Virus record (IMG/VR): IMGVR_UViG_3300047552_000676
Span: 6,116 to 70,115 of that record
Strand: one strand, 5' to 3'
Origin: a virus
Length of the DNA stretch: 64,000 bases
Below the pieces are notes generated by a model, which was not told the DNA's origin, did not search any database, and saw only the letters and a program-made list of their open reading frames with translations. Below, one piece after another: positions 52,532-53,379 of the stretch. The stretch's first letter is position 1. Each line of letters opens with the position of its first letter. Made by a program: the position numbers and the translations under genes.

Positions 52532-52608
52532 TGATGGGAAGGGCTGGATTCAAACCAGCGACGCAAGCCTTATAATGGACTCCGCTCTATCAACTGAGCT
52601 ACCCTCCC
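52532..52608 (-). tRNA. Aberrant tRNA or tRNA pseudogene with 8-nt anticodon loop (CATTATAA)
   Basis: Intact acceptor, D and T stems, but T-loop TTTGAAT, 3' end TCA and 8-nt anticodon loop. Confidence 0.6.
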
Positions 52609-52614
52609 GAAATC

Positions 52615-52688
52615 TGGAGCGGGAAACGGGAATCGAACCCGTGTCATTAGCTTGGAAGGCTAAGGTTCTACCATTAAACTACTCCCGC
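52615..52688 (-). tRNA. tRNA-Gly(TCC)
   Basis: Canonical cloverleaf, T73, CCA. Confidence 0.95.
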
Positions 52689-52693
52689 AAGAA

Positions 52694-53125
52694 GTGGTCG
52701 GTTCTTACACAGACCCCCAGCAAGACTTGCGTCTAACTAGAGGTGACCGACCTTGCGAGGGCCTTCACTTCACTGGATCGGTATCACCAGAAAGATCCGG
52801 GGCTCCCCCGCTCACTGGCTCAGGCACGCTGAGCGAACAGACTGTCGTTGGCAGTTGCTTGCTTTGCTTGGTATTTCATCTTGCTTCGTTTCCTCCACAA
52901 GACGAGGGCTCCGCTTGCCCTAGCAGTTCATCTCAGTGTTCTCATCCCCGTCGAAACCAGGACTGGCCCACCTAAGGATACTCAAGGTCGCTACTGACAT
53001 AAAAGTATCATACTTTGTTAGGCGTATGAACTCAGGAATATCCTTAGGTGGACCAGGCGAGAGTCGAACTCGCGTCCGGAAACAATTACACTTCGATTCT
53101 GGCAGGATTCACGCCCTGCCTACTG
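52694..53125 (-). ncRNA. ssrA: Circularly permuted (two-piece) tmRNA, tag (A)ANDSLFAQRA
   Basis: Acceptor piece ends GCGAG-TTCGACT-CTCGC-CTGGTCC-A at 53049. A hairpin intervening segment spans 52970-53048. The coding piece starts GGGCCAG..TTTCGACGGGG at 52969, giving a G3-U70 pair. Tag at 52820-52852. Outer boundaries approximate. Confidence 0.9.
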
Positions 53126-53187
53126 CCATCTGAACTTATTTACAATGTTTTCAAGTGACTACTGCTGTGACTGCAGAAGTCAGCACC

Positions 53188-53379
53188 TTGATTCAAGAAA
53201 AGATTACTCTAAGGATTAGAGTCTTGACTAGAGCATTAATTCTTCGTGGCATCGGACAACAGACCTCCGTCGTGGATAGGCTGTCTAGCTCACCTATCCC
53301 TCGTAAGCGTCTGTGCCTACTTTATCCGTTGACTATCTCGTTGGCCTAACGATTTGAGAGTAATCTTATCTCGAATCAA
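53188..53379 (-). ncRNA. Rod-shaped ncRNA of about 190 nt (6S-like topology)
   Basis: About 22-bp closing stem, large central bubble, nested stems CGGATA/TGTCCG, ACAGAC/GTCTGT, GGATAGG/CCTATCC. Confidence 0.55.

What the first reader, a model, noticed from the sequence alone, without database searches (positions are those of the whole stretch)
52694..53125. Phage-encoded circularly permuted two-piece tmRNA
Seen: the T-arm and 3' acceptor strand (ending 53049) are transcribed before the 5' acceptor strand (52969). They are joined by a hairpin intervening segment closed by ACCTAAGGATA/TATCCTTAGGT. The acceptor stem GGGCCAG/CTGGTCC has the G3-U70 Ala determinant, and the pieces can also pair via GGGGATGA/TTGTTTCC and ACACT/AGTGT. 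Known: permuted tmRNAs occur in alphaproteobacteria and some cyanobacteria and betaproteobacteria. Inference: this form is uncommon in phages, and it would rely on host SmpB since no smpB lies in the window.
Basis: partly seen in the sequence, partly recalled or inferred. Interest (0 to 1): 0.8.

Follow-up and report, generated by a model that had tools for sequence, protein, structure and literature searches.

The report
Two-piece tmRNA gene in jumbo phage
A large uncultured freshwater phage carries a real, swapped-order (two-piece) gene for tmRNA, the RNA that frees stalled ribosomes; such genes are already known and common in aquatic phages, so its only unusual points are a tag without the usual degradation signal and an incompletely encoded CCA end.

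Summary
On the minus strand, at about 53138-52689, lies a circularly permuted tmRNA gene. ARAGORN calls it permuted (52729-53138, tag ANDSLFAQRA). Rfam RF04321 scores 60.8 bits against a gathering score of 47.

The gene sits in a tRNA array of a myovirus contig that is about 29% complete. The tail sheath is 40-45% identical to those of Ralstonia phage RSL1 and jumbo phages of Achromobacter and Burkholderia.

The claim that this form is uncommon in phages is not supported:
- A 2022 paper counted 53 two-piece forms among 133 unique phage tmRNAs.
- In my own sample of 118 IMG/VR loci, ARAGORN made 72 permuted calls.
- This scan has already reported phage permuted tmRNAs on other DNA.

Three things are particular to this copy:
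- It is divergent. Only the tRNA-like domain resembles the betaproteobacterial type.
- The tag ends in QRA, whereas 68 of 72 viral permuted tags end in AA.
- The 3' end is encoded as ACC-U, a form seen in 2 of 74 genes.

One related jumbo phage, G407, carries a similar gene whose tag ends in MVA. No smpB was found. No RNA data exist for this phage, so processing and function are inferred.

Verdict: a new member of a known kind, of modest interest.

The parts
53047..53138 (-). Acceptor piece, transcribed first. It runs from a 5' tail through the 3' strands of P2 and the T arm to the 3' acceptor strand, A73 and CC. The 5' limit is ARAGORN's and is not mapped.
   Evidence: ARAGORN; Rfam alignment; cofold
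53101..53120 (-). Hairpin GGCAGGG/UCCUGCC in the 5' part of the acceptor piece. G407 has a hairpin with a UUCG loop at the matching place, seen by eye.
   Evidence: MFE fold; G407 sequence
53078..53092 (-). 3' strands of helix P2: AGUGU (53092-53088) and UUGUUUCC (53085-53078)
   Evidence: (8 of 8 pairs)
53057..53073 (-). T arm: GCGAG, loop UUCGACU, CUCGC
53047..53056 (-). 3' acceptor strand CUGGUCC, discriminator A (53049), CC (53048-53047). The next base is U (53046), so the terminal A of CCA is not encoded.
   Evidence: CCT in 2 of 74; a second run of the same sample reads the same letters
52970..53046 (-). Intervening segment of 77 nt, a hairpin with a 14-bp closing stem. It holds no ORF of 15 codons or more.
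52963..52969 (-). 5' acceptor strand GGGCCAG (G1 = 52969, G3 = 52967 pairs with U70 = 53052)
52935..52962 (-). D-loop analogue UCCUGGUUUCGAC and the 5' strands of P2 (GGGGAUGA, ACACU)
52853..52934 (-). Region between P2 and the tag frame. It holds a possible third P2 segment, ACUGCUA (52927-52921), pairing with UGGCAGU (53128-53122), and hairpins where pseudoknot 1 would be expected. No clear pseudoknot was found.
52820..52852 (-). Tag reading frame GCC...GCC UGA = ANDSLFAQRA plus stop
   Evidence: ARAGORN; Rfam alignment to the consensus resume codon
52696..52817 (-). Structured 3' domain of the coding piece: two predicted stem-loop units, the last being the hairpin 52752-52696. No relative and no Rfam match.
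52615..52688 (-). tRNA-Gly(UCC), 7 nt after the last tmRNA hairpin. Its 5' processing would set the 3' end of the coding piece (inferred).

Best explanation
This is a working ssrA gene of the circularly permuted (two-piece) kind, carried by an RSL1-like jumbo myovirus.

Inferred path. The gene is transcribed with the neighbouring tRNA genes as part of a long precursor. Host tRNA-processing enzymes then cut it. RNase P cuts 5' of G1 (52969), and also 5' of the following tRNA-Gly. 3' trimming removes the 77-nt hairpin spacer. The host CCA-adding enzyme supplies the missing terminal A.

The two RNAs are about 92 nt and about 280 nt long. They stay joined through the 7-bp acceptor stem and helix P2. 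Host alanyl-tRNA synthetase charges the acceptor end through G3.U70 and A73. Host SmpB delivers the complex to stalled ribosomes. Translation resumes on GCC and adds ANDSLFAQRA.

The benefit to the phage would be to keep ribosomes free during infection.

Shown: gene identity, architecture and phage location. Inferred: transcription, processing, charging, SmpB use and the fate of tagged proteins.
For: Gene identity:
- ARAGORN makes a permuted tmRNA call.
- RF04321 is above its gathering score (60.8 against 47).
- The tRNA-like domain and P2 align to RF01850 positions 66-178.

Functional elements, read:
- The acceptor stem has 7 of 7 pairs with G3.U70 and A73.
- The T loop is UUCGACU and the D-loop analogue is GGUUUCGAC.
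- P2a has 8 of 8 pairs.
- The resume codon GCC aligns with the consensus, and the 10-codon frame ends in UGA.

Family covariation: in 79 distinct viral permuted genes, acceptor positions 4-6 pair in 79 of 79, with 11 different combinations. With shuffled partners the paired fraction is 0.58 on average and 0.67 at most.

Fold: the precursor fold has z -5.24.

Phage context: the gene lies among 10 tRNA genes and phage genes.

A related phage: G407 (gyrB 56% identical, 93% complete) has a permuted tmRNA of similar length. It scores 85.3 bits, and its acceptor stem differs through compensating changes (GGGGGUG/CACCUCC).

Literature: processing of permuted precursors by tRNA-processing enzymes is stated in PMC11915505 (passages).
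Against: - No RNA evidence exists. Only the source sample holds this DNA. The RNA runs that were laid cover only the tRNA-Gly stretch.
- The gene scores far lower than its relatives: 60.8 bits against 117.8-135.7 for six relatives.
- The terminal A of CCA is not encoded. That is so in 2 of 74 genes, while 8 of 9 tRNAs of this phage that I checked do encode CCA.
- The tag ends in QRA. No clear pseudoknot 1 was found.
- No smpB lies in the record.
- No orthologue with the same tag was found.
- The acceptor stem and spacer stem form an unbroken 21-bp helix. A73, C74 and C75 are paired in it, unlike in most relatives, where two bases on each side stay open. This could hinder normal processing.
Confidence: 0.72

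Rival explanations
1. A decoy or modulator rather than a rescuer. The RNA binds host SmpB, and perhaps SspB through the AND start of its tag. It would then compete with host tmRNA, damping host trans-translation or sparing phage proteins from degradation tagging.
For: - The tag lacks the terminal AA found in 68 of 72 viral permuted tags.
- The CCA end is incompletely encoded.
- PMC4131195 (passages) reports that a molecule consisting of the tRNA-like domain alone, as in phage DS6A, strongly inhibits tmRNA, perhaps by titrating SmpB.
Against: A complete, in-frame 10-codon tag with a consensus-like resume context and a stop codon is kept. It is kept in the related phage G407 as well. A pure decoy would not need that. 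The alanine identity elements are intact.
Confidence: 0.13
2. A decaying gene. It was once captured from a betaproteobacterial host or from another phage, is now drifting, and has little or no function.
For: - The Rfam score is low relative to relatives.
- Outside the tRNA-like domain there is no detectable similarity to any of the loci collected.
- The tag end is unusual and the CCA end reads CCU.
- 8 of 9 related jumbo-phage records lack a permuted tmRNA above the gathering score. All 4 cultured relatives lack both the permuted and the standard form.
Against: - All 7 acceptor pairs, 5 T-stem pairs and 8 P2a pairs are intact.
- The open frame has the same length as in relatives.
- The fold is strong (z -5.24).
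- tmRNA sequences are normally conserved only in the tRNA-like domain (my own knowledge).
Confidence: 0.1
3. Not a phage gene: a piece of host DNA, such as an ssrA integration site, joined to a prophage contig.
For: tmRNA genes are common integration sites (PMC11915505 passages). Some of the IMG/VR loci with permuted tmRNA may be of that kind, since they have no tRNA genes nearby.
Against: The gene is complete. It lies about 53 kb into a 64-kb window with phage genes on both sides: tail sheath, baseplate and helicase on one side, gyrase-like genes on the other. It sits inside a phage tRNA array, on the same strand as the neighbouring genes.
Confidence: 0.02

Closest known systems
Betaproteobacterial-type permuted tmRNA (Rfam RF01850; general model RF04321)
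   Same: - Gene order: acceptor half, stem-closed spacer, then coding half.
- The tRNA-like domain and the P2 sequence.
- The tag begins AND and has 10 codons.
- The best-scoring clan model for the tRNA-like domain is RF01850.
   Different: - RF01850 reaches only 60.9 bits against a gathering score of 84, and aligns only positions 66-178 of 331. Six viral relatives score 110-134 bits, five over the full length and one, cut by its locus end, from position 49.
- There is no promoter or terminator of its own. The Rfam beta model covers sequence resembling -35 and -10 promoter boxes, by my reading of its consensus, and a terminal hairpin.
- The 3' domain is longer and unrelated.
- The tag ends in QRA, and the 3' end reads CCU.
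Two-piece tmRNA of OM43 phage Melnitz and of other marine or aquatic phages (Buchholz et al. 2022, PMC9004378; passages read)
   Same: A permuted ssrA carried by a lytic-type myovirus, with no smpB reported. The proposed role is to maintain the hijacked translation machinery.
   Different: - Melnitz's gene is of alphaproteobacterial type and carries a glutamine riboswitch in its 3' domain.
- Here the tRNA-like domain is beta-like, and no riboswitch or other Rfam family matches at E up to 1.
- The phage lineage differs: this one is RSL1-like, from fresh water.
Permuted tmRNA of the related jumbo-phage record G407 (L131 1410-1817)
   Same: - Related phage (gyrB 56% identical).
- Gene length 408 against 410 nt.
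- A 10-codon tag ANDxxFxxxA that starts and ends with GCC and stops at UGA.
- The tag does not end in AA (MVA).
- Beta-like but below the RF01850 gathering score (70.6 bits).
   Different: - CCA is fully encoded.
- The acceptor stem is GGGGGUG/CACCUCC.
- The spacer is about 100 nt.
- It has its own terminator-like end and is not in a tRNA array.
- It lies on the other side of gyrB.
- Outside the tRNA-like domain the sequence is not alignable with confidence.
Caulobacter two-piece tmRNA (Keiler, Shapiro and Williams 2000; known to me from reference lists and recall, paper not read)
   Same: The mature RNA consists of two base-paired pieces made from one precursor by tRNA-processing enzymes.
   Different: It is a chromosomal, alphaproteobacterial type. 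Its tag ends in AA (recalled). It has been shown by experiment, and this one has not.
One-piece tmRNAs of mycobacteriophages (Bxz1 group) and the DS6A molecule consisting of the tRNA-like domain alone (PMC4131195, passages read)
   Same: A phage-borne ssrA relative sitting among phage tRNA genes.
   Different: Those have the standard gene order, or lack a tag frame altogether.

Membership tests
tmRNA (ssrA), permuted form (RF04321) | Covariance-model score at or above the curated gathering score | tested here: met
   60.8 bits against 47; E 2.6e-9 over the window. Repeated.
tmRNA (ssrA), permuted form (RF04321) | Permuted order: the T arm and 3' acceptor strand come upstream of the 5' acceptor strand, separated by an intervening segment | tested here: met
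   ARAGORN 'tmRNA*'. Coordinates read. Spacer of 77 nt with a 14-bp closing stem.
tmRNA (ssrA), permuted form (RF04321) | A 7-bp acceptor stem with G3.U70 and discriminator A73 (alanine identity) | tested here: met
   GGGCCAG/CUGGUCC, 7 of 7 pairs, U at position 70, A at 53049. That these are the AlaRS determinants is established knowledge and was not tested here.
tmRNA (ssrA), permuted form (RF04321) | Encoded 3' CCA | tested here: not met
   ACC is followed by U. CCA is encoded in 72 of 74 viral permuted genes and CCT in 2. The legend of Figure 1 in PMC11915505 says the position does not always encode CCA, so this does not exclude membership.
tmRNA (ssrA), permuted form (RF04321) | T arm and D-loop analogue (GGUUUCGAC) of the SmpB-binding tRNA-like domain, and helix P2 | tested here: met
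   Alignment. T stem 5 of 5 pairs and P2a 8 of 8 pairs.
tmRNA (ssrA), permuted form (RF04321) | Tag reading frame with an alanine resume codon and an in-frame stop | tested here: met
   GCC...UGA at 52852-52820. It aligns with the consensus GCa AAC GAu.
tmRNA (ssrA), permuted form (RF04321) | Tag ending in a hydrophobic-Ala-Ala degradation signal | tested here: not met
   The tag ends in QRA. Of 72 viral permuted tags, 56 end in LAA and 68 in AA. None of the 56 unique tags has R next to last.
tmRNA (ssrA), permuted form (RF04321) | Pseudoknot 1 upstream of the resume codon | tested here: inconclusive
   Only weak crossing stems of 4-5 bp were found. The MFE fold gives plain hairpins.
tmRNA (ssrA), permuted form (RF04321) | Processing into two RNAs, alanylation, SmpB-dependent tagging | not testable with these tools
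   No RNA run holds the locus.
tmRNA (ssrA), permuted form (RF04321) | Partner SmpB available | tested here: inconclusive
   PF01668 is absent from the 70-kb record, which is 29% complete. It is also absent from 3 related records that are 93-100% complete. Host SmpB is assumed.
beta_tmRNA (RF01850) | Score at or above the gathering score over the full model | tested here: not met
   60.9 bits against 84, with model positions 66-178 of 331 only.

The most novel reading that the evidence does not exclude
In a lineage of freshwater RSL1-like jumbo phages, the phage tmRNA has been retuned so that rescued proteins receive a tag that keeps the AND start but lacks the ClpX-type Ala-Ala end. The tag ends in QRA here and in MVA in G407. 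The phage would then free ribosomes without sending the products to the host's standard degradation route, or would redirect them. The unencoded terminal A and the fully paired 21-bp acceptor-plus-spacer helix might also point to a maturation route different from that of host two-piece tmRNAs.
Probability: 0.2. Interest if true: 0.55.

Novelty: new member of a known kind. Interest (0 to 1): 0.3.

Why it matters
It adds a divergent example, from a phage group whose four cultured relatives lack tmRNA, to the already large set of aquatic phages that carry their own ribosome-rescue RNA.

The tag does not end in Ala-Ala, and a related phage shares that trait. This gives a concrete, testable case for asking whether phages use tmRNA only to recycle ribosomes or also to control the fate of the tagged proteins.

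As an annotation matter, the gene is found by standard tools and needs no new concept.

Tried and rejected
Searches for orthologues that led nowhere:
- blastn of the locus against 50,697 phage records gave no match.
- An exact pattern from the 5' coding piece gave 0 hits in viral contigs.
- The one metagenome scan gave 7 loci. Six were standard tmRNA genes and one was cut at a contig end. None was permuted.
- A tag-shaped pattern gave 8 loci, of which only G407 holds a tmRNA. The other 7 had no call.
- A P2 plus tRNA-like-domain pattern gave 8 loci, two of them held already (G407's record and L228). Six hold permuted genes with longer tags ending in LAA.

The one genome-contig scan was badly chosen. 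Its pattern mostly hit ordinary tRNA genes. Of the 92 loci, ARAGORN called a tmRNA in 13, and only one (L056) was permuted.

A DNA search of 401 genomes, drawn from the class of a MAG labelled Gammaproteobacteria, gave 4 genomes with matches of 26-32 nt in the tRNA-like domain. The genomes were small and unlabelled, so nothing about the host follows. I therefore name no host. The Burkholderiales suggestion rests only on tail-sheath similarity.

Expression:
- Only the source sample (X1, and X2 of the same sample) holds the DNA.
- RNA runs hold small shares.
- When laid, they cover only 52614-52689, the tRNA-Gly, with unlike flanks.
- So there is no evidence for or against transcription or processing.

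Promoter and terminator scan: 6 promoter-like sites against 5.3 expected and 5 terminator-like sites against 5.2 expected, none directly at the gene. This is not informative.

Structure:
- Cofolding the two inferred pieces recovered the acceptor stem and P2 here.
- The same method recovered only the acceptor stem in G407, so I do not lean on the extra helices it proposes. These are 53135-53130 with 52823-52818, and 53128-53122 with 52927-52921.
- The search for pseudoknot 1 was inconclusive.
- The pairwise MAFFT alignment with G407 is unreliable outside the tRNA-like domain.

The antisense ORF 52694-52975 (+), 93 aa, has no PHROG match and looks spurious.

Literature gaps:
- PMC516066 (Sharkady and Williams 2004) is not held.
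- Supplementary tables of PMC9004378 and PMC11915505 list the phage tmRNAs and could show whether beta-type or RSL1-like examples are already catalogued.
- My statement that no paper describes this particular lineage rests only on searches.

Full report
What is there. Reading the minus strand of 53200-52690 gives, in order:
- a short hairpin (53120-53101);
- the 3' strands of helix P2 (AGUGU 53092-53088, UUGUUUCC 53085-53078);
- a T arm (GCGAG, loop UUCGACU, CUCGC; 53073-53057);
- the 3' acceptor strand CUGGUCC (53056-53050), discriminator A (53049) and CC (53048-53047);
- a 77-nt hairpin spacer (53046-52970);
- the 5' acceptor strand GGGCCAG (52969-52963);
- the D-loop analogue UCCUGGUUUCGAC;
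- the 5' strands of P2 (GGGGAUGA 52949-52942, ACACU 52939-52935);
- about 80 nt of hairpins;
- a reading frame GCC AAC GAC AGU CUG UUC GCU CAG CGU GCC UGA (52852-52820);
- a structured tail of about 120 nt that ends 7 nt before tRNA-Gly (52688).

Detection. ARAGORN reports a permuted tmRNA at 52729-53138 (-) with tag ANDSLFAQRA, among 10 tRNA genes. Rfam's permuted tmRNA model RF04321 scores 60.8 bits against a gathering score of 47, with E 2.6e-9 for the whole window. With looser filters the betaproteobacterial model RF01850 gives 60.9 bits. That is below its gathering score of 84, and it covers only model positions 66-178 of 331, which are the tRNA-like domain and P2. No other family matches 52650-53250 at E up to 1, apart from the truncated neighbouring tRNA. 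The whole precursor folds at -176.7 kcal/mol against -146.9 +/- 5.7 for 100 shuffles (z -5.24). The minimum-energy fold contains the T arm, P2, and an unbroken helix made of the acceptor stem and the spacer stem.

It is a phage gene.
- The window is 64 kb of a 70,115-base IMG/VR virus record that CheckV rates 29% complete.
- PHROG matches include helicase, baseplate wedge, tail sheath, tail protein and topoisomerase II.
- The tail sheath is 44.7% identical to that of Ralstonia phage RSL1. It is 39.8-41.6% identical to those of Achromobacter phage Motura and Burkholderia phages BcepSaruman, BcepSauron and BCSR5, all with genomes of 221-264 kb.
- The tmRNA lies between these structural genes and the gyrase-like genes, inside the tRNA array and on the same strand.
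- The source is a freshwater metagenome. Only that sample holds the DNA. A contig from a second run of the same sample reads 52841-53351 with no differences, including the ACC-U end.

Relatives.
- An exact 23-mer of the tRNA-like domain finds two IMG/VR contigs, and a looser pattern finds seven more. All nine hold permuted tmRNAs with tags ending in LAA.
- The six I scanned score 117.8-135.7 bits on RF04321 and 110.4-133.8 bits on RF01850, over its full length in five. They are typical beta-type genes. The window's copy is an outlier that shares only the tRNA-like domain with them.
- Among phage kin, none of the 4 cultured relatives (RSL1, Motura, BcepSaruman, BCSR5) has a permuted or a standard tmRNA.
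- From gyrB homologues I obtained 9 related viral records. One of the 9 has a permuted tmRNA above the gathering score.
- That record is G407: 222 kb, 93% complete, gyrB 56% identical. Its gene is 408 nt long and encodes CCA. Its acceptor stem is GGGGGUG/CACCUCC, again with G3.U70, and its tag is ANDENFRMVA. Like the window's copy it is beta-like but below the RF01850 gathering score (70.6 bits).

Support from covariation. In 79 distinct permuted genes parsed from the collected viral loci plus the window, acceptor positions 4-6 pair in 79 of 79, with 11 different combinations. When partners are shuffled among sequences, the paired fraction averages 0.58 and reaches 0.67 at most. The window's copy has 7 of 7 acceptor pairs, 5 of 5 T-stem pairs and 8 of 8 P2a pairs, against a family mean of about 6 of 8 for P2a. 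The regular expression fixed the outer acceptor pairs and part of the T stem, so only the inner positions carry information.

How common this is. Passages of Buchholz et al. 2022 (PMC9004378) report tmRNA genes in 402 of 18,146 phage genomes. These made 133 unique forms, of which 53 were two-piece by ARAGORN, and 50 of those came from marine or aquatic phages. Passages of the 2025 tmRNA database paper (PMC11915505) list 79 unique bacteriophage tmRNAs and 11,946 permuted sequences overall. The same paper states that permuted precursors are cut by tRNA-processing enzymes and that the CCA position is not always encoded. Al-Shayeb et al. 2020 (PMC7162821, passages) note tmRNAs and SmpB in huge phages. 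ARAGORN made 72 permuted and 27 standard calls on them, and 22 loci had no call. That sample is biased by the pattern, and some loci may be host flanks of prophages. This scan's own notes also hold several earlier follow-ups on phage permuted tmRNAs in other genomes.

What is particular here.
1. The tag. Of the 72 viral permuted tags, 56 end in LAA and 68 in AA. Among the 56 unique tags only four do not end in AA, and none has arginine next to last. The window's QRA and G407's MVA are exceptions. The frame has the same length as the common ANDxxFALAA type and the same AND start. That ClpX reads the terminal LAA and SspB the AAND start is established for E. coli, which I recall rather than tested. 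What reads a QRA end is unknown.
2. The 3' end. ACC is followed by U. CCA is encoded in 72 of 74 parsed genes and CCT in 2, the window and L220. Eight of the 9 tRNA genes of this phage that I checked encode CCA. A CCA-adding enzyme must therefore finish the end. No PF01743 match was found in this record or in three related ones, so a host enzyme is assumed.
3. The spacer. The spacer stem pairs A73, C74 and C75 with the leader. In most relatives two bases on each side stay open.
4. Gene context. There is no promoter or terminator of its own. Beta-type relatives seem to carry both: by my reading, the RF01850 model's unpaired 5' part resembles -35 and -10 boxes, and the model ends in a terminal hairpin. 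Here the gene follows a tRNA-Arg and a folded RNA of about 190 nt, and tRNA-Gly follows it 7 nt after its last hairpin. Co-transcription with the tRNAs, and release by RNase P, is the simplest reading. It is inferred.
5. No spacer ORF. The spacer has no ORF, whereas 24 of 74 relatives carry an ATG ORF of 15 codons or more there.

SmpB. No PF01668 match was found in the 70-kb record, nor in G407, G406 or G408, which are 93-100% complete. Use of host SmpB is the natural inference, but about 70% of this genome is unseen.

Mechanism and confidence. I put the identity of the gene as a permuted tmRNA at about 0.95. I put the reading that it is processed, charged and active in ribosome rescue at about 0.7. 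The main rivals are a modulator that competes for SmpB (about 0.13) and a decaying gene (about 0.1). Host contamination is practically excluded by the context.

Verdict. It is a new, divergent member of a known kind, found by standard tools. The tag without an Ala-Ala end, shared in kind with one related jumbo phage, is the only feature that could lead somewhere new.

Noticed in passing
L002, L056, L149, L186, L191, L205, L222 and others (intervening segments of permuted tmRNA genes in IMG/VR loci): In 24 of 74 viral permuted tmRNA genes the spacer holds an ATG ORF of 15 codons or more. In the copies I looked at, an AAGGAG-like site precedes it and its stop overlaps the last spacer bases. One recurring family encodes a hydrophobic peptide of about 23 aa ending in VVFALVLL. 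The window's spacer has no such ORF. Earlier notes of this scan describe the same 'gene in the spacer' on other genomes.
   Followed up: partly
L131 1410-1817 (record G407, 222 kb): A related jumbo phage has a permuted tmRNA with tag ANDENFRMVA. It is not in a tRNA array. It lies about 7 kb upstream of gyrB rather than downstream, and is followed by a terminator-like hairpin and a U run.
   Followed up: partly
window 52614-52689 (tRNA-Gly UCC): Contigs from freshwater RNA and DNA runs of other studies match this tRNA-Gly, some with 0 differences over 75 nt but with unlike flanks, and at high depth. The phage tRNA-Gly is thus identical to one in abundant organisms. This might be a hint to the host.
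   Followed up: no
window 52535-52608 (tRNA-Ile UAU): After the last aligned base of this tRNA the DNA reads TCA rather than CCA. The other 8 tRNAs I checked encode CCA. The alignment end may be offset by a few bases.
   Followed up: no
window 52798-52810 (-): A GC-rich 5-bp hairpin (CGGGG-GAG-CCCCG), followed by a U-rich stretch, lies just after the tag stop codon. The simple scan lists it as terminator-like. If it acts as a terminator, the coding piece would be much shorter than assumed.
   Followed up: no
L056 (= G004 contig C126, 7,585 b) in a MAG labelled Bifidobacterium: This contig carries a beta-type permuted tmRNA (133 bits) with a spacer ORF. The same MAG has weaker tmRNA-like hits on another contig. 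The contig is probably mis-binned phage or foreign DNA.
   Followed up: no
window 52694-52975 (+): A 93-codon GTG ORF lies antisense to the tmRNA coding piece. It has no PHROG match and a low-complexity sequence, and is probably spurious.
   Followed up: partly
L220 (IMG/VR locus): This is the only other parsed gene with an ACC-T end. Its spacer starts with the same ACCTAAG, and its tag is 31 aa long and ends in LAA. It gave the best blastn total against the window's gene, 100 bits in two pieces.
   Followed up: no
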